The position numbers and the translations under genes were made by a program. A model generated the notes under the pieces. The model did no database searches, was not told the origin of the DNA, and saw nothing but the letters and a program-made list of their open reading frames with translations. A stretch of 64,000 bases of DNA. Origin: Escherichia coli. Lineage in GTDB: Bacteria > Pseudomonadota > Gammaproteobacteria > Enterobacterales > Enterobacteriaceae. Positions 2,676-57,920 of this stretch are shown here, piece after piece (the stretch's first letter is position 1; each line of letters opens with the position of its first letter). The stretch is from NCBI RefSeq assembly GCF_050920415.1, contig NZ_CP169309.1, one strand, 5' to 3'.

Positions 2676-3694
2676 AAAAGCTAGGGGATTTACCTGATGT
2701 CACTTTTGAAGAGGCCTGCCTAAGATGGCTTGAGGAAAAAGCTGATAAAAAATCTCTCGATTCAGATAAAAGCCGGATTGAGTTCTGGCTTGAACATTTT
2801 GAGGGTATAAGGCTTAAAGATATCTCGGAGGCAAAGATTTACTCTGCTGTAAGCAGAATGCATAACAGAAAGACGAAAGAAATATGGAAACAGAAAGTTC
2901 AGGCCGCCATCAGGAAAGGTAAAGAACTGCCTGTTTATGAACCAAAGCCAGTATCAACTCAGACAAAGGCAAAGCATCTTGCCATGATAAAGGCCATTCT
3001 CCGTGCTGCAGAACGCGACTGGAAGTGGCTGGAAAAAGCGCCTGTCATCAAGATACCAGCGGTCAGAAACAAGCGAGTCAGATGGCTGGAAAAGGAGGAA
3101 GCAAAACGCCTTATTGATGAGTGCCCCGAACCACTGAAATCTGTCGTCAAGTTTGCGCTGGCAACTGGTCTGAGAAAGTCGAACATCATAAATCTGGAAT
3201 GGCAACAAATCGACATGCAGCGACGAGTTGCCTGGGTGAATCCAGAAGAGAGCAAATCAAACCGCGCCATTGGTGTGGCGCTAAACGATACCGCCTGTAA
3301 AGTGTTGCGTGATCAAATAGGCAAGCATCACAAATGGGTGTTTGTACATACCAAGGCGGCTAAGCGAGCAGATGGAACATCAACGCCTGCGGTCAGGAAG
3401 ATGCGCATCGACAGCAAGACATCATGGCTATCAGCTTGTCGTCGTGCAGGAATTGAAGATTTCCGTTTCCATGACCTCAGACACACCTGGGCAAGCTGGC
3501 TGATTCAGTCAGGCGTCCCATTATCAGTGCTTCAGGAAATGGGCGGATGGGAGTCCATAGAAATGGTTCGTAGGTATGCTCACCTTGCGCCTAATCATTT
3601 GACAGAGCATGCGAGGAAAATAGACGACATTTTTGGTGATAATGTCCCAAATATGTCCCACTCTGGAATTATGGAGGATATAAAGAAGGCGTAA
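2531..3694 (+). CDS. intD: Tyrosine site-specific integrase of an argU-integrating lambdoid prophage (DLP12 IntD type), 387 aa
   Basis: 387 aa; C-terminal catalytic region with [10 protein letters not shown] and RRYAHL motifs; ends 15 bp from the 3' end of tRNA-Arg. Confidence 0.9.
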
Positions 3695-3709
3695 CTGATT
3701 GAATTGTAA

Positions 3710-3786
3710 TGGCGCGCCCTGCAGGATTCGAACCTGCGGCCCACGACTTAGAAGGTCGTTGCTCTATCCAACTGAGCTAAGGGCGC
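3710..3786 (-). tRNA. argU: tRNA-Arg (anticodon UCU)
   Basis: 77 nt cloverleaf read on the minus strand: GCGCCCTTAGCTCAGTTGGATAGAGCAACGACCTTCTAAGTCGTGGGCCGCAGGTTCGAATCCTGCAGGGCGCGCCA; anticodon loop CT-TCT-AA; 3' CCA encoded. Confidence 0.9.
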
Positions 3787-4028
3787 GTTGATACCGCAAT
3801 GCAGTGTAATCGCGTGAATTATACGGTCAACCCTTGCTGAGTCAATGGCTTTTGATCTGGTTGCTGAACAAGTGAACGACCACGTCTGATTTTCTGATTT
3901 ATTTCGCTATAGCGGCAAACAAACGCACCCCGCTGCGCATCTGAATCAAGAAAACCCGTATTTTCATGTATCAAAGTACAATTTCCAGCCCTAACGGAAA
4001 ATTGTCCTACCCTGTGAGACTGGTAACT

Positions 4029-4661
4029 ATGAAACCAACGTCGGTGATCATTATGGATACCCATCCTATCATCAGAATGTCCATTGAAGTTCTGTTGCAA
4101 AAAAACAGTGAATTGCAGATTGTCCTGAAAACGGATGATTACCGCATAACCATCGATTATCTCCGAACCCGTCCTGTTGATTTAATCATTATGGATATAG
4201 ACTTGCCCGGTACAGACGGTTTTACCTTCCTGAAAAGAATCAAACAAATCCAGAGTACGGTGAAGGTATTATTTTTATCATCAAAATCAGAATGCTTTTA
4301 TGCGGGCAGAGCGATACAAGCGGGTGCTAACGGTTTTGTCAGTAAATGCAATGATCAGAATGATATTTTTCATGCCGTCCAGATGATTCTCTCTGGATAC
4401 ACTTTTTTTCCCAGTGAAACGCTCAACTATATAAAAAGTAATAAATGCAGCACCAATAATTCAACAGCTACGGTGCTATCTAATCGTGAAGTGACTATAT
4501 TACGCTATCTGGTTAGCGGATTATCTAATAAAGAAATTGCCGACAAACTATTACTTAGCAATAAAACAATTAGTGCGCATAAATCTAATATTTATGGCAA
4601 ACTCGGTTTGCATTCAATTGTAGAACTTATCGACTACGCCAAATTATATGAATTAATATAA
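4029..4661 (+). CDS. fimZ: LuxR-family response regulator FimZ (receiver domain plus C-terminal HTH), 210 aa
   Basis: ORF 3966-4661; start taken at MKPTSVIIMD; receiver motif DLIIMDIDLPGTDG and LuxR HTH (EIADKLLLSNKTISAHKSNIYGKLG). Confidence 0.9.
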   Translation: MKPTSVIIMDTHPIIRMSIEVLLQKNSELQIVLKTDDYRITIDYLRTRPVDLIIMDIDLPGTDGFTFLKRIKQIQSTVKVLFLSSKSECFYAGRAIQAGANGFVSKCNDQNDIFHAVQMILSGYTFFPSETLNYIKSNKCSTNNSTATVLSNREVTILRYLVSGLSNKEIADKLLLSNKTISAHKSNIYGKLGLHSIVELIDYAKLYELI

Positions 4662-4663
4662 TA

Positions 4664-5179
4664 TTAATTATAATTGATCATAAATATCGCATCCGCTTTC
4701 GCCACACCTGGTTGGACACCGCTGGCTAACGCTCGATAATTGGCAAAAAAGTTTAGCGTTACATTGCCATTTGCATCTACCTCCTCAGTCGGGCTCGCCT
4801 CGCCCAGCGCAAGCCGGGAGCGATCGCTCTTGCGTAATTCGATGGCGACGGTTTGTGCCATTGCGGGATCGTCCAGGGCCAGCAGGTTGGCATCGGATGC
4901 CGGCGTTCCCGTAAATAAAATCGCGACTGATCCCGGAGGACATCCTTCCAGGCGCAGACTAAAAGGAACAGGTGCCGTGGTATCGCCAGCGGTCAGTAGT
5001 TGTGTCGTAGGCCATCTGCCTAAATCTACCGTCTTATCAACATCCGCTGTGTTTACGGTACAGGAGAAATCAACAACGTTACCGTGCAAATTGATATTAA
5101 TCGTTCCTAAAGGGTCAGCTGCCCATCCACTGGAACTCCACAGTAGCCCGCAGAAACAGCTAAAGATTACTCTTCTCAT
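4664..5179 (-). CDS. sfmF: Minor fimbrial subunit, 171 aa
   Basis: ORF 4664-5374; start at MRRVIFSCF signal peptide; fimbrial subunit fold; last gene of the sfm operon. Confidence 0.85.
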   Translation of the reverse strand: MRRVIFSCFCGLLWSSSGWAADPLGTININLHGNVVDFSCTVNTADVDKTVDLGRWPTTQLLTAGDTTAPVPFSLRLEGCPPGSVAILFTGTPASDANLLALDDPAMAQTVAIELRKSDRSRLALGEASPTEEVDANGNVTLNFFANYRALASGVQPGVAKADAIFMINYN

Positions 5180-10775: not shown

Positions 10776-11642
10776 ATGGCAGCAAAGATTATTGACGGTA
10801 AAACGATTGCGCAGCAGGTGCGCTCTGAAGTTGCTCAAAAAGTTCAGGCACGTATTGCAGCTGGACTGCGGGCACCAGGACTGGCCGTAGTACTGGTGGG
10901 TAGCAACCCTGCATCGCAAATTTATGTCGCAAGCAAACGCAAAGCTTGTGAAGAAGTCGGGTTCGTCTCCCGTTCTTATGACCTCCCGGAAACCACCAGC
11001 GAAGCGGAGCTGCTGGAGCTTATCGATGCGCTGAATGCCGACAACACCATTGATGGCATTCTGGTCCAACTGCCGTTACCGGCGGGTATTGATAACGTCA
11101 AAGTGCTGGAACGAATTCACCCGGACAAAGACGTTGACGGTTTCCATCCTTATAACGTCGGTCGTCTATGCCAGCGCGCGCCGCGTCTACGTCCTTGCAC
11201 CCCGCGTGGTATCGTCACACTGCTTGAGCGATACAACATTGATACCTTCGGTCTTAACGCCGTGGTGATTGGCGCATCGAATATCGTCGGTCGCCCAATG
11301 AGCATGGAACTGCTGCTCGCAGGTTGCACCACCACCGTGACTCACCGCTTCACTAAAAATCTGCGTCATCACGTAGAAAATGCCGATCTACTGATCGTTG
11401 CCGTCGGTAAACCGGGCTTTATTCCTGGTGACTGGATCAAAGAAGGCGCGATTGTGATTGATGTTGGCATCAACCGTCTGGAAAATGGCAAAGTTGTGGG
11501 CGACGTGGTGTTTGAAGACGCGGCTAAACGCGCCTCATACATTACGCCTGTTCCGGGCGGCGTTGGCCCGATGACGGTTGCCACGCTGATCGAAAACACG
11601 CTACAGGCGTGCGTTGAATATCATGATCCACAGGGTGAGTAA
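10776..11642 (+). CDS. folD: Bifunctional methylenetetrahydrofolate dehydrogenase / methenyltetrahydrofolate cyclohydrolase
   Basis: 288 aa, recognised FolD sequence. Confidence 0.95.
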
Positions 11643-11643
11643 C

Positions 11644-11856
11644 ATGGCGACATTTTCTTTAGGTAAACATCCGCACGTTGAGCTGTGCGACTTGCTGAAA
11701 CTGGAAGGCTGGAGCGAAAGCGGTGCGCAGGCGAAAATCGCGATTGCCGAAGGCCAGGTGAAAGTCGACGGCGCGGTTGAAACGCGCAAACGCTGCAAAA
11801 TCGTCGCCGGTCAGACAGTGAGTTTTGCAGGTCACAGCGTACAGGTTGTTGCCTGA
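11644..11856 (+). CDS. ybcJ: S4-domain small RNA-binding protein, 70 aa
   Basis: ORF 11614-11856; start at MATFSLGKHPHVELCDLLK; followed by a terminator hairpin. Confidence 0.8.
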   Translation: MATFSLGKHPHVELCDLLKLEGWSESGAQAKIAIAEGQVKVDGAVETRKRCKIVAGQTVSFAGHSVQVVA

Positions 11857-11863
11857 TCCCTTT

Positions 11864-11896
11864 CCCGGCCTGTATCAACAGGCCGGTTCTCTTTTC
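11864..11896 (+). terminator. Rho-independent terminator after ybcJ
   Basis: GC stem cccggcctg / caggccgg with 6-nt loop followed by a T-rich tract. Confidence 0.5.
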
Positions 11897-11963
11897 AGAC
11901 TTTTGCCCTCTACGCCCCGTTCATCCATGCTGATAGCATCGACATTTTGCCGAAGCGACCATC

Positions 11964-12485
11964 ATGCCAACCGTTATTACGCACGCCGCCGTTCCCCTTT
12001 GCATTGGTTTAGGGTTGGGTTCGAAAGTCATCCCTCCGCGCCTGTTATTTGCCGGAATCATCCTGGCGATGCTGCCCGATGCTGATGTATTGACATTTAA
12101 ATTTGGCGTTGCTTACGGCAATGTTTTTGGTCATCGCGGGTTCACCCATTCGCTGGTGTTTGCGTTTGTTGTCCCGCTGTTATGTGTGCTGATTGGACGT
12201 CGATGGTTCAGGGCTGGGCTGATTCGCTGCTGGCTGTTTTTAACCGTTTCGTTGCTATCGCACAGCTTGCTGGATTCGGTAACCACTGGCGGTAAAGGCG
12301 TTGGCTGGCTGTGGCCGTGGTCAGATGAACGCTTTTTCGCTCCCTGGCAGGTGATTAAAGTCGCGCCGTTTGCATTGTCTCGTTACACCACGCCGTACGG
12401 GCATCAGGTGATTATTTCTGAATTGATGTGGGTGTGGTTGCCGGGGATGCTACTGATGGGAATGTTGTGGTGGCGCAGACGATAA
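11964..12485 (+). CDS. ybcI: Inner-membrane metal-dependent hydrolase family protein (DUF457)
   Basis: 173 aa hydrophobic ORF at the conserved position between ybcJ and cysS. Confidence 0.8.
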   Translation: MPTVITHAAVPLCIGLGLGSKVIPPRLLFAGIILAMLPDADVLTFKFGVAYGNVFGHRGFTHSLVFAFVVPLLCVLIGRRWFRAGLIRCWLFLTVSLLSHSLLDSVTTGGKGVGWLWPWSDERFFAPWQVIKVAPFALSRYTTPYGHQVIISELMWVWLPGMLLMGMLWWRRR

Positions 12486-12520
12486 CCGGATGCGAAAACT
12501 CGCATCCGGCAATAGCGCAA

Positions 12521-13906
12521 TTACTTACGACGCCAGGTGGTCCCTTGCGGGCCATCTTCCAGCACGATCCCCATCTCGTTAAGACGGTCACGCGCCGCAT
12601 CTGCCGCCGCCCAGTCTTTCGCTTTACGGGCATCCAGACGCTGTTGAATTAAGGCTTCAATCTCAGCCACTTCGCTGTCGTCTGCCTGCGCGCCGCTTTG
12701 CAGGAACGCTTCCGGTTCTTGCTCCAGCAGGCCCAGCACGGCTGAAAGTTTACGCAGATGAGACGCCATCGCGTTTGCCGCTGCCATATCTTCTGCTTTC
12801 AGACGGTTCACTTCACGCGCCATATCAAACAGCACGGAATAGGCTTCCGGGGTGTTGAAATCGTCGTCCATCGCTTCAATAAAGCGCGCTTCAAACGCTT
12901 CGCCACCGGCAGGCGCAACGGTTTTATCTGTGCCGCGCAGCGCAGTGTAGAGGCGCTCCAGCGCCGCACGCGCCTGCTTCAGATTCTCTTCGCTGTAGTT
13001 CAGCTGGCTGCGATAGTGGCCCGACATCAGGAAGTAACGCACGGTTTCCGCGTCGTAGTATTTCAGCACATCACGCACGGTAAAGAAGTTACCCAGCGAT
13101 TTGGACATCTTCTCTCGGTCAACCATTACCATCCCCGAGTGCATCCAGTAGTTCACATACTGACCATCATGGGCACAGGTGGACTGCGCGATTTCGTTCT
13201 CGTGGTGCGGGAACATCAGGTCTGAACCACCGCCGTGGATATCAAAGTGGTTACCCAACTGCTTGCAGTTCATTGCCGAACATTCAATGTGCCAGCCTGG
13301 ACGGCCTGCGCCCCACGGAGACGGCCAGCTCGGTTCGCCCTCTTTCGACATCTTCCACAGAACGAAGTCCATCGGGTTGCGTTTGTCGTCGACCACGTCA
13401 ACGCGCGCGCCTGCCTGCAGCTGGTCGAGATCCTGACGCGACAGCACGCCATAAGTTGGATCGGTCGGTACGTCGAACATCACGTCGCCGTTGTCCGCCA
13501 CATAAGCGTGACCTTTGGCGATCAGTTGTTCAGTGAGTTCAATGATTTCTGCGATATGGTGCGTCGCGCGCGGCTCCATATCCGGGCGCAGAATGTTCAA
13601 AGCATCAAAATCTTTGTGCATTTCGGCGATCATGCGATCCACCAGCGCTACAAAGCTTTCGCCATTTTCATTGGCACGCTTGATGATTTTGTCGTCGATA
13701 TCGGTAATGTTGCGCACATACTTCAGCTTATAGCCGAGGAAACGCAAATAGCGTGCAACCACGTCAAAGGCAACAAAGGTACGCCCGTGACCGATATGAC
13801 AGAGATCGTAAACGGTGATTCCACACACGTACATGCCGACTTCCCCGGCGTGAATAGGCTTAAATTCCTCTTTTTGGCGTGTCAGAGTATTGAAGATTTT
13901 TAGCAT
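12521..13906 (-). CDS. cysS: Cysteine--tRNA ligase
   Basis: 461 aa; class I synthetase HIGH motif ([15 protein letters not shown]) and KMSKS. Confidence 0.95.
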
Positions 13907-14079
13907 CGAAGATTCCGTTTAGACATGTGTGGGTAATTGAGTTGCGTATAATACCCATATTTCCCGCGCGAATCAGCATACATTGCGTGATGATCCGATC
14001 GTGCGGTTATGCTATAACACCACCCTATATATGACCCGAATCGGGTTGAAGCACCAATCAAACGGAACAGGATGCAAAA

Positions 14080-14574
14080 ATGGTTACTTTCCACACCAAT
14101 CACGGCGATATTGTCATCAAGACTTTTGACGATAAAGCACCTGAAACAGTTAAAAACTTCCTGAACTACTGCCGCGAAGGTTTTTACAACAACACTATTT
14201 TCCACCGTGTTATCAATGGTTTCATGATTCAGGGCGGCGGTTTTGAACCGGGCATGAAACAAAAAGCCACCAAAGAACCGATCAAAAACGAAGCCAACAA
14301 CGGTCTGAAAAATACCCGTGGTACGCTGGCAATGGCCCGTACTCAGGCACCGCACTCTGCAACTGCACAGTTCTTCATCAACGTGGTTGATAACGACTTC
14401 CTGAACTTCTCTGGCGAAAGCCTGCAAGGTTGGGGTTACTGCGTGTTTGCTGAAGTGGTTGAAGGCATGGACGTGGTAGACAAAATCAAAGGTGTAGCAA
14501 CCGGTCGTAGCGGTATGCACCAGGACGTGCCAAAAGAAGACGTTATCATTGAAAGCGTGACCGTTAGCGAGTAA
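14080..14574 (+). CDS. ppiB: Peptidyl-prolyl cis-trans isomerase B (cyclophilin)
   Basis: 164 aa cyclophilin sequence. Confidence 0.95.
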
Positions 14575-14576
14575 TC

Positions 14577-15299
14577 GTGGCGACACTCTTTATTGCAGAT
14601 CTTCATCTCTGCGTGGAAGAACCGGCGATCACCGCCGGTTTTCTGCGTTTTTTAGCGGGGGAAGCCCGCAAGGCCGACGCGCTGTATATTCTTGGCGATC
14701 TGTTTGAAGCATGGATTGGCGATGACGATCCCAACCCACTCCATCGCCAGATGGCCGCAGCGATCAAAGCGGTATCCGATTCCGGCGTTCCCTGTTATTT
14801 CATTCATGGCAACCGTGATTTTCTGCTCGGCAAACGCTTTGCCCGTGAAAGCGGGATGACGTTATTGCCGGAAGAAAAAGTGCTCGAACTTTATGGCCGT
14901 CGGGTGCTGATTATGCATGGCGACACGCTGTGCACCGATGACATCGGTTATCAGGCTTTTCGCGCCAAAGTCCACAAGCCGTGGCTGCAAACGCTATTCC
15001 TCGCCCTGCCGTTGTTTGTGCGCAAACGCATTGCCGCGCGAATGCGAGCGAACAGCAAAGAAGCCAACAGCAGTAAATCGCTGGCGATCATGGACGTTAA
15101 CCAAAACGCGGTGGTCAGTGCGATGGAAAAGCATCAGGTGCAATGGTTGATTCACGGGCATACGCATCGCCCGGCGGTGCATGAACTGATCGCCAATCAG
15201 CAACCTGCTTTTCGTGTCGTGTTGGGTGCCTGGCATACGGAAGGTTCGATGGTGAAAGTCACGGCAGATGACGTTGAGTTGATCCATTTTCCATTTTAA
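14577..15299 (+). CDS. lpxH: UDP-2,3-diacylglucosamine pyrophosphatase
   Basis: 240 aa calcineurin-like phosphoesterase; conserved position after ppiB. Confidence 0.9.
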
Positions 15300-15416
15300 A
15301 AAACGCGCAACTTTGCTGATTTCATAGCCGCGCAACCGTTTTCCTTGCTCTCTTTCCGTGCTATTCTCTGTGCCCTCTAAAGCCGAGAGTTGTGCACCAC
15401 AGGAGTTTTAAGACGC

Positions 15417-15926
15417 ATGTCTTCCCGCAATAATCCGGCGCGTGTCGCCATCGTGATGGGGTCCAAAAGCGACTGGGCTACCATGCAGTTCGCCGCCGAA
15501 ATCTTCGAAATCCTGAATGTCCCGCACCACGTTGAAGTGGTTTCTGCTCACCGCACCCCCGATAAACTGTTCAGCTTCGCCGAAAGTGCCGAAGAGAACG
15601 GTTATCAGGTAATTATTGCGGGCGCAGGCGGCGCAGCGCACCTGCCGGGCATGATTGCCGCCAAAACGCTGGTGCCAGTGCTGGGTGTGCCAGTACAGAG
15701 CGCCGCACTGAGCGGTGTCGATAGCCTCTACTCCATCGTACAAATGCCGCGCGGCATTCCGGTGGGTACGCTGGCGATTGGTAAAGCTGGCGCGGCAAAC
15801 GCGGCGTTACTGGCAGCACAAATTCTTGCGACTCATGATAAAGAACTGCACCAGCGTTTGAATGACTGGCGCAAAGCACAAACTGATGAAGTGCTGGAAA
15901 ACCCGGACCCGCGAGGTGCGGCATGA
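15417..15926 (+). CDS. purE: N5-carboxyaminoimidazole ribonucleotide mutase
   Basis: ORF 15390-15926; start at [20 protein letters not shown]; 169 aa. Confidence 0.9.
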
Positions 15927-16990
15927 AACAGGTTTGCGTCCTCGGTAACGGGCAGTTAGGCCGTATGTTGCGCCAGGCAGGCGAACCGTTAGGCATTGCT
16001 GTCTGGCCGGTCGGGCTGGACGCTGAACCGGCGGCGGTGCCCTTTCAACAAAGCGTGATTACCGCTGAGATCGAACGCTGGCCGGAAACCGCATTAACGC
16101 GCGAGCTGGCACGCCATCCGGCCTTTGTGAACCGCGATGTGTTCCCGATTATTGCCGACCGTCTGACTCAGAAGCAGCTTTTCGACAAGCTTCACCTGCC
16201 GACTGCACCGTGGCAGTTACTTGCCGATCGCAGTGAGTGGCCTGCGGTGTTTGATCGTTTAGGTGAACTGGCGATTGTTAAGCGTCGTATTGGTGGCTAT
16301 GACGGTCGCGGTCAATGGCGTTTACGCGCCGATGAAACCGCACAGTTACCAACTGAATGCTACGGCGAATGTATTGTCGAGCAGGGCATTAACTTCTCTG
16401 GCGAAGTATCGCTGGTTGGCGCGCGCGGCTTTGATGGCAGCACTGTGTTTTATCCGCTGACGCATAACCTGCATCAGGACGGTATTTTGCGCACCAGCGT
16501 CGCTTTCCCGCAGGCCAACGCACAGCAGCAGGCGCAGGCCGAAGAGATGCTGTCGGCGATTATGCAGGAGCTGGGCTATGTGGGCGTGATGGCGATGGAG
16601 TGTTTTGTCACGCCGCAAGGTCTGCTGATCAACGAACTGGCTCCGCGTGTGCATAACAGCGGTCACTGGACACAAAACGGTGCCAGCATCAGCCAGTTTG
16701 AGCTGCATCTGCGGGCGATTACCGATCTGCCGTTACCGCAACCGGTAGTGAATAGTCCGTCGGTGATGATCAACCTGATTGGTAGCGATGTGAATTATGA
16801 CTGGCTGAAACTGCCGCTGGTGCATCTGCACTGGTACGACAAAGAAGTGCGTCCGGGCCGTAAGGTGGGGCATCTGAATTTGACCGACAGCGACACATCG
16901 CGTCTGACCGCAACGCTGGAAGCCTTAATCCCGCTGCTGCCGCCAGAGTATGCCAGCGGCGTGATGTGGGCGCAGAGTAAGTTCAGTTAA
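15923..16990 (+). CDS. purK: N5-carboxyaminoimidazole ribonucleotide synthase
   Basis: 355 aa ATP-grasp protein; 4-nt overlap with purE. Confidence 0.9.
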
Positions 16991-17008
16991 CCTGGTGCTC
17001 AAATTCTT

Positions 17009-17206
17009 GCCGGATGCAGCGTGAACACCTTATCCGACCTACTAATCCGGTACCCATTGTAGGCCTGATAAGACGCGTCAAGCGTCGCATCAGGCATGGT
17101 GCGCCGATTACCGGATGCGGCGTGAACGCCTTATCCGACTACCAATCCGGTACCCATTGTAGGCCTGATAAGACGCGTCAAGCGTCGCATCAGGCATGGT
17201 GCGCCA
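17009..17206. repeat. Tandem REP/BIME-type intergenic repeats (two units of about 100 bp)
   Basis: Near-identical units containing gccggatgcggcgtgaacgccttatccg and taggcctgataagacgcgtcaagcgtcgcatcaggc, directly repeated. Confidence 0.7.
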
Positions 17207-17223
17207 TATGCTGGATGCTCCCA

Positions 17224-18120
17224 TCACGACAGCGAAATACAGGTCCCCGCTTCGCCCGCCAGCGTCTCTTCAATCCGCGATAAAGCCCCAATCCACGCAG
17301 GTTTACCACGGCTTCTGACATAGCCACTCACCGCCGTTACCTTCGGCCCCATCGCCCCATCGGCTTTGGCAAATGGCGCTAACTCATCCGGTGTGGCATG
17401 GCGAATGGCGCGTTGCTGCGGCGTTCCCCAGTTTTCATAAACCGCGTCAGCATCGGTGAGGATCACCAGTCCATCGGCATTAATCTGCTCGGCAAGCAAC
17501 GCCGCGGCGAGATCTTTATCAATCACCGCTTCACTCCCTGCTCCGTCATCCGTCACCGGAACACCGCCGCCGCCACTGCAAATCACCACATGCCCCTCTT
17601 TGAGCAACAACTCGATGGCTTCGCTGTCGAGAATTTTACGAGGCTGGGGAGATGCCACCACCCGGCGTAAATATTTGCCATCACGCTTCATTTTCCAGCC
17701 GTAAGCCGTTTCCAGTGCCTCTTGTTCTTCTGGCTGATAAACCGGGCCGATAAACTTCTCTGGCTGCAAAAACGCCGGATCATCAGACGAAACTTCAATG
17801 CGTGTCAGCACCGTCGTCACAGGCGGCATCTGCGGCTGTGCGCTCAAACTCTGCGCCAGCATATAGCCAATCATCCCCTGACTTTCCGCCACCAGCACAT
17901 CCAGTGGATACGGTTCGACCTCTTTCCACGCCAGATTCTGTAACGCCAACAACCCCACCTGCGGCCCGTTGCCGTGAACAATCGCCAGCCGATAAGCACG
18001 CGCCAGGCGCGCCAGCGCGGGAACAGCACTGGCAATATTGCGATATTGATTTTCTGCCGTCAGCGCCTCACCGCGCTGGAGTAAGGCATTGCCCCCAAGA
18101 GCTACAACCAGTGTTTTCAT
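17224..18120 (-). CDS. ybcF: Carbamate kinase-like protein
   Basis: 298 aa amino-acid-kinase family; N-terminal [13 protein letters not shown]. Confidence 0.85.
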
Positions 18121-25298: not shown

Positions 25299-25340
25299 GT
25301 CATACCACACGCCTGATTATTTTTAGCTATGTTGGATTTT

Positions 25341-25367
25341 GCCACGGTTTATACCGTGGCTTTTTTT
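25341..25367 (+). terminator. Rho-independent terminator after allE
   Basis: Hairpin gccacggtttataccgtggc followed by T7. Confidence 0.6.
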
Positions 25368-25382
25368 GTAGTCAATTCAGGT

Positions 25383-49169: not shown

Positions 49170-49275
49170 GATAGTTTTTGCCGGATGCGGCTTGAACGCT
49201 TATCTGGCCTACACAATCTTGCAAAATCAATATATTGCACGCTCTTCGTAGACCAGATAAGCGTAGCGCATCAGG
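49170..49275. repeat. REP-type palindromic repeat
   Basis: gccggatgcggc...gcttatctggcctac and its partner gtagaccagataagcgtagcgcatcaggc in inverted orientation. Confidence 0.5.
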
Positions 49276-54729: not shown

Positions 54730-54875
54730 TGTAGGCCTGATAAGACGCGCCAGCGTCGCATCAGGCATCCGCGCATAGCCGCCGGATGCGGCGTGAACGC
54801 CTTATCCGGCCTACCAAACCGTGCTAATTCAATACATTGCAGGTGCCATGTAGGTCTGATAAGACGCATCAGGCA
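54730..54875. repeat. REP/BIME-type intergenic repeats
   Basis: Multiple gcctgataagacgc...gcatcaggc and gccggatgcggcgtgaacgccttatccgg units. Confidence 0.6.
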
Positions 54876-57842: not shown

Positions 57843-57920
57843 CGCGTCTTATCACACCCGGAAATCTGTACTAAAAATCATGCCGGATAAGGCGTTTACG
57901 CCGCATCCGGCATATAGCCG
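57843..57920. repeat. REP-type palindromic repeat
   Basis: gccggataaggcgtttacgccgcatccggc palindromic unit. Confidence 0.5.

What the first reader, a model, noticed from the sequence alone, without database searches (positions are those of the whole stretch)
17009..17206. Tandem duplicated 100 bp REP/BIME unit after purK
Two nearly identical 100 bp units, each carrying two REP-like palindromes, are directly repeated. This is ordinary for E. coli intergenic DNA but is a potential site of copy-number variation.
Basis: seen in the sequence. Interest (0 to 1): 0.15.

Follow-up and report, generated by a model that had tools for sequence, protein, structure and literature searches.

The report
Tandem REP (BIME-2) repeat after purK
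This is an ordinary E. coli BIME-2 element, two tandem 100-bp units each made of two inverted REP hairpins, lying between the convergent genes purK and ybcF, and its unit number varies from 0 to 5 among sequenced strains as is already known for this repeat class.

Summary
Window 17007-17218 holds 2.1 head-to-tail copies of a 100-nt unit at 92% identity. Each unit is a y-type REP, a 16-nt linker, an inverted z2-type REP and a 14-nt linker. The array sits in the 233-bp spacer between convergent purK and ybcF.

Its suggested check now has an answer from 5,426 complete E. coli genomes:
- In an even sample of 59 genomes, 21 carry one unit and 19 carry the K-12 form (one full unit plus a 70-nt truncated unit).
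- 3 carry two units, 3 carry three and 7 carry five.
- 238 of the 5,426 genomes carry a REP-free 152-nt spacer instead.
- One strain has IS1397 inserted in the first REP loop.

The window's own haplotype occurs in 16 genomes: 7 with exactly two units and 9 with more (two read, both four units, the extra units exact copies of unit 2).

The window's first y REP carries three private G-to-A changes that weaken its hairpin. An Rfam naRNA4 match only reflects that this model is itself a BIME-2 unit. Function was not tested here. The probable roles are 3'-end RNA hairpins and a gyrase site.

Already known and low interest.

The parts
15923..16990 (+). purK coding sequence (context); stop codon TAA at 16988-16990
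   Evidence: ORF of 355 aa; annotated purK in the 100%-identical record NZ_CP169399.1
16991..17008 (.). 18-nt leader between the purK stop codon and the first REP
   Evidence: Sequence; unit dissection
17009..17042 (-). y-type REP of unit 1 (its GTAG is on the - strand; the + strand reads GCCGGATGCAGCGTGAACACCTTATCCGACCTAC). Partly decayed: private G-to-A changes at 17018, 17027 and 17037
   Evidence: 3 mismatches to the y consensus. The nearest relative N96 has the canonical sequence. RNA hairpin on the purK-sense strand is -7.7 kcal/mol against -21.3 for the canonical form
17043..17058 (.). 16-nt tail-to-tail linker of unit 1 (TAATCCGGTACCCATT), in the position of the short 'S' linker
   Evidence: Sequence. 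No IHF consensus here, unlike the long linker of the BIME-1 at 49180-49268
17059..17095 (+). z2-type REP of unit 1 (GTAGGCCTGATAAGACGCGTCAAGCGTCGCATCAGGC)
   Evidence: Inverted-repeat arms 17063-17076/17082-17095; 0 mismatches to the z2 pattern; hairpin -20.4/-21.3 kcal/mol as RNA
17096..17109 (.). 14-nt head-to-head linker (ATGGTGCGCCGATT)
   Evidence: Sequence; aligned to the linker of the naRNA4 model
17110..17142 (-). y-type REP of unit 2 (33 nt; first base G-to-A, stem foot G-to-A and a 1-nt deletion before CTAC)
   Evidence: hairpin -15.3/-14.4 kcal/mol as RNA
17143..17158 (.). 16-nt tail-to-tail linker of unit 2 (CAATCCGGTACCCATT)
   Evidence: Sequence
17159..17195 (+). z2-type REP of unit 2, identical to that of unit 1
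   Evidence: Inverted-repeat arms 17163-17176/17182-17195
17196..17218 (.). Terminal head-to-head linker (ATGGTGCGCCATAT) plus the first 9 nt of a third y REP (GCTGGATGC); this is the 0.1 extra copy
   Evidence: Tandem Repeats Finder extends the array to 17218; direct-repeat family D1 runs to 17218
17062..17140 (-). Stretch that matches Rfam RF02564 (naRNA4), i.e. y REP of unit 2 + head-to-head linker + z2 REP of unit 1 read on the ybcF-sense strand
   Evidence: 73.1 bits against a gathering score of 59.5
17224..18120 (-). ybcF (carbamate kinase) coding sequence (context), convergent with purK; stop codon TGA = 17224-17226 on the + strand
   Evidence: ORF of 298 aa; annotated ybcF

Best explanation
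The feature is a BIME-2 (bacterial interspersed mosaic element, type 2). It is a cluster of REP hairpin sequences in which a y-type REP and an inverted z2-type REP, joined by short linkers, form a 100-bp unit. That unit has been duplicated in tandem in the 233-bp spacer between the convergent genes purK and ybcF. Shown here: the anatomy, the extragenic position, and gain and loss of whole units at this locus among E. coli strains. Inferred: unit number changes by misaligned pairing between neighbouring repeats during replication or recombination. One-unit alleles already carry the 13-nt direct repeat GATTGCCGGATGC at both ends of the unit, 100 nt apart. The REP-associated transposase TnpA-REP/RayT, which cuts and rejoins BIME strands in vitro, may contribute. 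Inferred from the family, not tested at this locus: (a) both convergent transcripts run into the array, and the G+C-rich REP hairpins form 3'-end structures that slow 3'-to-5' exonucleases and may assist Rho-dependent stopping, since no intrinsic terminator is present; (b) as double-stranded DNA the array is a preferred DNA gyrase binding and cleavage site, which suits a spot where convergent transcription builds up positive supercoils. The element is dispensable here: 238 of 5,426 genomes carry a REP-free spacer.
For: Anatomy: period 100, 2.1 copies, 92%; palindrome arms; y and z2 types in alternating orientation. [quoted passage not shown] The Rfam model built on the y-linker-z2 unit of REP325 is matched above its gathering score. 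No IHF consensus lies in the linkers, and the position is extragenic between convergent genes. Copy-number variation: the spacer is 126-138 nt (1 unit), 194-204 (1 + truncated unit), 232-233 (2), 332 (3), 433 (4) and 533 (5), with frequencies from an even sample of 59 genomes. Local origin of the copies: both window units share locus-specific linkers. In four-unit alleles of the same haplotype, units 2 to 4 are identical apart from the terminal linker of unit 4, which matches the terminal linker of unit 2 in the two-unit alleles. Two different unit sequence families, A and B, both vary in number. The RNA folds better than shuffled sequence on both strands (z = -4.25 and -3.93), and there are no terminator-like sites in 16700-17500. 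Gyrase preference for BIME-2 is reported in PMC6379681. IS1397 lies in the loop of the first y REP of this very locus in strain SK0189, the known REP-specific behaviour of that insertion sequence (my own knowledge of Bachellier et al. 1997).
Against: Nothing contradicts the identification. The functional statements are family-level inferences. No transcript ends, RNA half-lives, gyrase cleavage or recombination rates were measured for this locus, and purK and ybcF do not appear in the gyrase-site supplementary text that could be searched. The first y REP of the window is badly weakened (-7.7 kcal/mol), and both y REPs deviate at the stem foot, so this copy may be decaying. The REP-free allele in 4.4% of genomes shows that any function is not essential.
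Confidence: 0.93

Rival explanations
1. The array is a gene for a nucleoid-associated small RNA of the naRNA4 type, which with protein HU bridges cruciform DNA and condenses the nucleoid.
For: Rfam RF02564 (naRNA4) matches 17062-17140 on the - strand at 73.1 bits, above the gathering score of 59.5. That strand is the ybcF-sense strand, so it could be transcribed by read-through. PMC4550694 reports that most REP elements are transcribed and that an RNA with two hairpins (y and z2) is what HU-dependent condensation needs.
Against: The Rfam model is simply one y-linker-z2 unit of the BIME-2 called REP325 (yjdM-yjdN), so it should match any BIME-2. It also hits the unrelated BIME at window 54734-54811 with a higher score of 83.6 bits. 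The locus and linker sequences differ from REP325. No promoter-like site lies in the spacer. Unit number varies from 0 to 5, and 238 genomes lack the element, which argues against a required RNA gene.
Confidence: 0.06
2. The two units are two independent insertions of a mobile REP doublet (a REPIN-like element moved by the RayT transposase) rather than a local tandem duplication.
For: REP/BIME sequences are substrates of TnpA-REP, which cleaves and recombines them in vitro and can assemble multiple REPs (PMC3333891). REPs are dispersed at many sites per genome (median 9 megablast places per genome for a query containing this array).
Against: The copies are exactly in register (period 100-101) and share linker sequences specific to this locus. 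The other BIME-2 in the window has a different head-to-head linker. In four-unit alleles the added units are exact copies of the neighbouring unit. In the K-12 lineage a 70-nt truncated unit is what was duplicated (L009). All of this points to in-place amplification.
Confidence: 0.05
3. The array is the intrinsic (Rho-independent) bidirectional terminator of purEK and of the ybcF operon.
For: It lies between convergent genes and forms strong G+C-rich hairpins on both strands.
Against: No hairpin is followed by a T-run, and the terminator scan finds 0 sites in 16700-17500. REPs are described as facilitating Rho-dependent termination, not intrinsic termination (PMC2817692).
Confidence: 0.03
4. 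The region encodes a small protein (the 89-aa ORF at 17014-17283 on the + strand).
For: An ATG-started ORF of 89 aa spans the array.
Against: The ORF is made of REP sequence and overlaps the 3' end of ybcF. Alleles differ by 100-nt or 70-nt steps, which are not multiples of 3, so the frame is not conserved. No CDS is annotated there in any of the RefSeq records read at this spacer.
Confidence: 0.01
5. The duplication is an assembly artefact of the source genome.
For: Repeats of this length can be mis-assembled from short reads.
Against: Exactly the same two-unit structure occurs in six other complete genomes from different laboratories and countries.
Confidence: 0.01

Closest known systems
BIME-2 (bacterial interspersed mosaic element type 2; Gilson, Bachellier, Hofnung and co-workers; summarised in PMC3333891 and PMC1187871)
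   Same: Made of y and z2 REPs in alternating orientation with short linkers, repeated in tandem, strictly extragenic, and with unit number polymorphic between strains.
   Different: Nothing in kind. This copy is small (2.1 units; published range 2-12) and its two y REPs are partly degraded in the window strain.
REP325 / naRNA4 (Rfam RF02564; PMC4550694)
   Same: The same y-linker-z2 unit; the window sequence scores above the Rfam gathering threshold.
   Different: REP325 lies between yjdM and yjdN and has six 77-nt units separated by identical 'U' spacers. Its linker sequences differ, and HU binding and nucleoid effects were shown only for REP325.
BIME-1 / IHF-binding REP pair (example in this window at 49180-49268)
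   Same: A y REP and an inverted z-type REP placed tail to tail.
   Different: BIME-1 uses z1 rather than z2, has a long linker carrying an IHF consensus (AATCAATATATTG at 49225-49237), and occurs as a single unit. The element under study has 16-nt linkers without an IHF site and is tandemly repeated.
REPIN / RAYT system (REP doublets mobilised by REP-associated tyrosine transposases; PMC2817692; REPIN concept from my own knowledge of Bertels and Rainey 2011)
   Same: Inverted REP pairs with a conserved GTAG; probable substrate of RayT/TnpA-REP.
   Different: Here the pair is made of two different REP types, and the copies arose by amplification in place rather than by dispersal.
E. coli/Shigella VNTR typing loci with units of about 100 bp (e.g. 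ms32, 101-bp unit, alleles 1-5.5; PMC8215070)
   Same: The same period and the same range of unit numbers; used as a length-polymorphic marker.
   Different: A different locus: none of the seven MLVA primer pairs is found in the window, even allowing 3 mismatches.

Membership tests
REP (repetitive extragenic palindrome) of E. coli | Imperfect palindrome of 30-40 nt able to form a hairpin, with an internal mismatch or bulge | tested here: met
   Four elements of 33-37 nt. Predicted hairpins have an internal unpaired position and energies of -7.7 to -21.3 kcal/mol as RNA; arms reported.
REP (repetitive extragenic palindrome) of E. coli | Conserved GTAG tetranucleotide next to the foot of the stem | tested here: met
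   GTAG at 17059-17062 and 17159-17162 (+ strand). CTAC at 17039-17042 and CTAC at 17139-17142 (its G is shared with the shortened stem foot) mark the y REPs on the - strand. Feature as defined in PMC3333891.
REP (repetitive extragenic palindrome) of E. coli | Many dispersed copies per genome, outside genes | tested here: met
   22 REP-core matches in the 64-kb window against 3.8 expected. Median of 9 megablast places per genome for a query containing the array. The array lies between annotated genes.
BIME-2 | Composed of y and z2 REPs (not z1) | tested here: met
   GCCGGATGCGGCG... type (y) and the long GCCTGATGCGACGC...GCGTCTTATCAGGC type (z2). Both align to the y and z2 hairpins of the REP325-derived Rfam model. 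The z1 form seen at 49249-49268 is shorter.
BIME-2 | REPs in alternating orientation separated by short linkers without the IHF site of BIME-1 | tested here: met
   Orientation y(-) z2(+) y(-) z2(+); linkers of 16 and 14 nt; no WATCAANNNNTTR match in 16991-17223.
BIME-2 | Units repeated in tandem | tested here: met
   2.1 copies of a 100-nt unit.
BIME-2 | Unit number at a locus varies between strains | tested here: met
   0, 1, about 1.6, 2, 3, 4 and 5 units at purK-ybcF in complete genomes.
BIME-2 | Preferential binding and cleavage by DNA gyrase | not testable with these tools
   Family-level property (PMC6379681). purK and ybcF were not found in the supplementary text held for that paper.
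naRNA4 (Rfam RF02564) | Score at or above the Rfam gathering threshold | tested here: met
   73.1 bits against 59.5. The model also hits another BIME-2 in the window, so this criterion only identifies a y-linker-z2 unit.
naRNA4 (Rfam RF02564) | Encoded by REP325 between yjdM and yjdN; a discrete HU-bound RNA | tested here: not met
   The locus here is purK-ybcF, not yjdM-yjdN. RNA production and HU binding cannot be tested with these tools.

The most novel reading that the evidence does not exclude
The number of y-z2 units between purK and ybcF might act as a heritable, reversible tuner, like a contingency locus. It would change the 3'-end stability of the purEK and ybcF transcripts, or the amount of gyrase recruited between two convergent operons. 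The recurrent expansions seen in three unrelated unit lineages would then be selected rather than neutral. A related reading is that the cluster of three private G-to-A changes within the 34-nt first y REP reflects hairpin-targeted mutagenesis.
Probability: 0.06. Interest if true: 0.35.

Novelty: already known. Interest (0 to 1): 0.1.

Why it matters
It matters little beyond correct annotation. REP/BIME arrays are a long-described class, and their length polymorphism has been known since the 1990s. The practical points are:
- The spacer should not be annotated as a gene or as 'naRNA4' on the strength of the Rfam hit.
- purK-ybcF is a usable length-polymorphic marker, with spacers of about 126 to 533 bp across E. 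coli.
- The allele series offers a natural set of 0-, 1-, 2-, 3-, 4- and 5-unit strains for anyone who wants to test what BIME-2 copy number does to neighbouring transcripts or to local supercoiling.

Tried and rejected
- **y REPs evolving faster than z2 REPs.** In the window the differences between the two units fall in the y REP and the terminal head-to-head linker, while the z2 REPs are identical. The idea is rejected as a general rule. In the second unit family (B) the y REP is the conserved part and z2 varies more.
- **The shared foot change.** I first read CCGAC, present in both window units, as proof that it predated the duplication. This was corrected: the nearest relative N96 has CCGGCC in unit 1, so the change in unit 1 is private to the window strain.
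- **Link to the MLVA marker ms32.** I tested whether the locus is the published 101-bp marker ms32 or any of the other six panel loci. No primer matches the window, so it is a different locus.
- **REP annotation of the K-12 locus.** The copy of NC_000913.3 held here lists no repeat features at purK-ybcF. It lists none at REP325 either, so the absence is uninformative.
- **Supplementary tables.** I looked for purK/ybcF in the supplements of the gyrase-site paper (none found), the TnpA-REP paper (no files held) and the naRNA4 paper (no files held).
- **Papers not reached.** Bachellier et al. 1997 (PMC1207841) is not held. A search for purK together with REP found nothing relevant. A search for the paper on REPs close to stop codons (Liang, Rudd and Deutscher 2015, cited from my own knowledge) did not find it. 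By that paper's 15-nt criterion, as I recall it, the 18-nt gap after the purK stop codon would fall just outside.
- **Script limitation.** My regex REP scan missed some copies because of non-overlapping matching. I replaced it with direct cutting of units and the pattern search.
- **Scans not run.** No scan of metagenome or other-species collections was made. The question did not justify the cost.

Full report
**1. The observation**

Tandem Repeats Finder reports a single array at window 17007-17218 with period 100, 2.1 copies, 92% matches and score 366. The repeat finder shows the same thing as two direct-repeat families 100-101 nt apart. Inside each copy it finds an inverted repeat with 14-nt arms and a 5-nt loop.

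Reading the sequence gives this layout:
- purK stop codon TAA at 16988-16990, then an 18-nt leader.
- Unit 1, 17009-17109: a 34-nt palindrome GCCGGATGCAGCGTGAACACCTTATCCGACCTAC, a 16-nt linker, a 37-nt palindrome GTAGGCCTGATAAGACGCGTCAAGCGTCGCATCAGGC, and a 14-nt linker.
- Unit 2, 17110-17209: the same four parts.
- 17210-17218: the first 9 nt of a third unit.
- 17224-17226: the stop codon of ybcF on the minus strand.

**2. What it is**

The first palindrome is the y type of E. coli REP. The second is the z2 type. They face opposite ways: the conserved GTAG of z2 is on the plus strand and that of y on the minus strand.

[quoted passage not shown] PMC1187871 states the same, citing Bachellier et al. 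[quoted passage not shown]

Several further checks agree:
- The linkers are 16 and 14 nt and contain no IHF consensus.
- A true BIME-1 in the same window (49180-49268) has y, a 34-nt linker with AATCAATATATTG, and a short z1 REP.
- Rfam's naRNA4 model (RF02564) is one y-linker-z2 unit of the BIME-2 called REP325 (PMC4550694). It matches 17062-17140 on the minus strand at 73.1 bits against a threshold of 59.5.
- The same model matches another BIME at 54734-54811 even better. The hit therefore marks the repeat class, not a specific RNA gene.
- REP cores are enriched in the window, with 22 matches against 3.8 expected.

The window is E. coli. It is 100% identical to the chromosome of strain MFDS1022581 (NZ_CP169399.1), with lpxH-purE-purK on one side and ybcF-ylbF-ylbE converging from the other.

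**3.

A query made only of the purK and ybcF flanks found the locus in 5,425 of 5,426 complete E. coli genomes. I listed 59 other genomes at even steps down the ranking. Allele classes in that sample were assigned from the spacer length (span in the record minus the 800 flank bases). The structure of each class comes from representative alleles that I read out; of the sampled hits themselves only four were fetched.

| Allele class | Genomes of 59 |
|---|---|
| One unit (spacer 126-138 nt) | 21 |
| K-12 form: one full unit plus a 70-nt unit with an internal 31-nt deletion (194-198 nt) | 19 |
| The same with a different right end (204 nt) | 2 |
| Two units of a second sequence family (232 nt) | 3 |
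| Three units (332 nt) | 3 |
| Five units (533 nt) | 7 |
| REP-free 152-nt spacer | 3 |
| IS1397 in the loop of the first y REP | 1 |

A direct search shows the REP-free spacer in full in 238 genomes, or 4.4%.

Unit sequences fall into two families:
- Family A: linker TCCGGTACCCATT, z2 loop region GCGTCAAGCG. Found in K-12, the window and others.
- Family B: linker TTCCGACACCGCC, GTAGACCTG. Both vary in number.

In the K-12 lineage the truncated 70-nt unit itself is duplicated in strain FLI21 (L009). Amplification has therefore happened repeatedly and on different templates.

**4. The window's own allele**

A 166-nt diagnostic query spanning linker, z2, linker, y, linker and z2 gave single-piece, near-identical matches in 16 genomes.
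- Seven match end to end, which requires exactly two units: MFDS1022581, N96, RMDEC465, 2013C-4282, WL297, 2017-02-2CC and EC42405.
- Nine match only positions 2-166 or 1-163, which requires more than two units.
- The two of these that I read (E200086 and Z0117EC0005) have four units, with units 2 to 4 identical in their cores.

The exact allele in the window is therefore rare, and its haplotype varies between two and four units. One-unit alleles carry the 13-nt direct repeat GATTGCCGGATGC at both ends of the unit. That is a ready substrate for slipped mispairing or unequal exchange.

In strain RMDEC465 the same C-to-G change is present in both z2 REPs. This indicates homogenisation between units, or a cycle of loss and re-duplication.

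**5. State of the copy in the window**

The nearest relative is N96, 99.2% identical over the adjacent 4.9 kb. Compared with N96, the window's first y REP has three private G-to-A changes at 17018, 17027 and 17037. They lower the predicted RNA hairpin on the purK-sense strand from -21.3 to -7.7 kcal/mol.

The second y REP has a changed first base and a shortened stem foot (-15.3 kcal/mol). Both z2 REPs are canonical (about -20 to -21 kcal/mol). The whole spacer still folds better than shuffled controls on both strands, with z-scores of -4.25 and -3.93.

**6. How it most likely works**

Shown here:
- The architecture and the extragenic position between convergent genes.
- Dispensability of the element at this locus.
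- Recurrent in-place amplification and contraction.
- Use of the REP loop as an IS1397 target.

Inferred from the family:
- There is no promoter-like site in the spacer and no terminator-like site in 16700-17500. Both transcripts probably run into the array.
- The REP hairpins would then act as barriers to 3' exonucleases and as aids to Rho-dependent termination (roles listed in PMC2817692, and PMC1187871).
- BIME-2 elements are preferred gyrase sites, cut more often in y than in z2 REPs and independently of transcription (PMC6379681). A site between convergent operons is a plausible place for this.
- TnpA-REP can cleave and recombine BIME strands in vitro and was proposed to drive 'BIME variability, multiplication and amplification' (PMC3333891).

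None of these functions was or could be tested here.

**7. Rivals**

- A dedicated naRNA4-like RNA gene is unlikely, because the Rfam model is generic for BIME-2 and the element is absent from 4.4% of genomes.
- Independent insertions of a mobile doublet are unlikely, because the copies are in register, share locus-specific linkers and, where recent, are exact copies of their neighbour.
- An intrinsic terminator is excluded by the lack of T-runs.
- The 89-aa ORF across the array is not conserved in frame among alleles.
- An assembly artefact is excluded by the six other genomes carrying the same structure.

**8. Verdict**

This is a confirmed, correctly interpreted and ordinary feature of a well-described class. 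Its predicted copy-number variation is now documented at this locus. Novelty: already known. Interest: low.

Noticed in passing
L015 (NZ_AP046539.1, strain SK0189) 3401-4950: IS1397 (an IS3-family element) sits exactly in the loop of the first y REP after purK (GCCGGATGCGGCGTGA|TGAACTGCACC...). On its far side is the right half of a z2 REP followed by gsk, so ybcF and the neighbouring region are missing or moved in this strain.
   Followed up: partly
L011 (NZ_CM183923.1) 392-543; same locus as window 16991-17223: 238 of 5,426 genomes carry, in place of the BIME, a 152-nt REP-free spacer. It contains a G+C-rich palindromic element (CCCCTCACCCTAACCCTCTCCCCACAGGGGCGAGGGGAC) whose central 50 nt also occurs at one other place in a further 245 genomes. 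It resembles the 'box C' repeats (my recollection, not tested).
   Followed up: partly
window 11000-17623: The source strain belongs to a sparsely sampled lineage. Over the purK/ybcF flanks the best other genome is 97.1% identical. Over 11000-15900 only strain N96 (Tibetan pig) reaches 99.2% and all others are at or below 98.4%.
   Followed up: partly
window 17224-17232: ybcF is 298 aa here against 297 aa in K-12. The usual stop codon TAG is TCG (Ser) in this haplotype, and translation ends one codon later at TGA, 5 nt from the partial third y REP.
   Followed up: partly
window 54731-54874: A second BIME-2-like cluster: z2 REP, a 14-nt linker, y REP, then a truncated z2-like REP. It is the best Rfam naRNA4 match in the window (83.6 bits).
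   Followed up: partly
window 49180-49268: A BIME-1 / IHF-site REP pair: y REP, a 34-nt linker with the IHF consensus AATCAATATATTG, then a short z1 REP. A further single y REP lies at 57877-57911.
   Followed up: partly
window 25305-25371 (- strand) and 3713-3786 (- strand): Rfam matches above the gathering score to the enterobacterial sRNA STnc480 (85.5 bits) and to a tRNA (72.1 bits).
   Followed up: no
L009 (NZ_CP139808.1, strain FLI21) 392-1029: This strain has the 70-nt truncated unit of the K-12 allele duplicated (spacer 264 nt). Its ybcF is annotated as a pseudogene with an internal stop.
   Followed up: no
window 17096-17109 and 17196-17209: The head-to-head linkers contain GGUGCGCC, which is self-complementary with two G-U pairs. 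In the predicted RNA fold of the + strand the two linker copies pair with each other and enclose unit 2. This may be incidental.
   Followed up: no
L019 (NZ_CM177019.1, strain RMDEC465) 449-681: Both z2 REPs of this two-unit allele carry the same private C-to-G change (AAGAGGCG). This suggests gene conversion between units, or loss and re-duplication.
   Followed up: no
L015 (NZ_AP046539.1) 1402-1731: An extra 330-nt 'hypothetical protein' CDS is annotated between lpxH and purE in strain SK0189. It is not annotated in K-12 or in the window strain.
   Followed up: no
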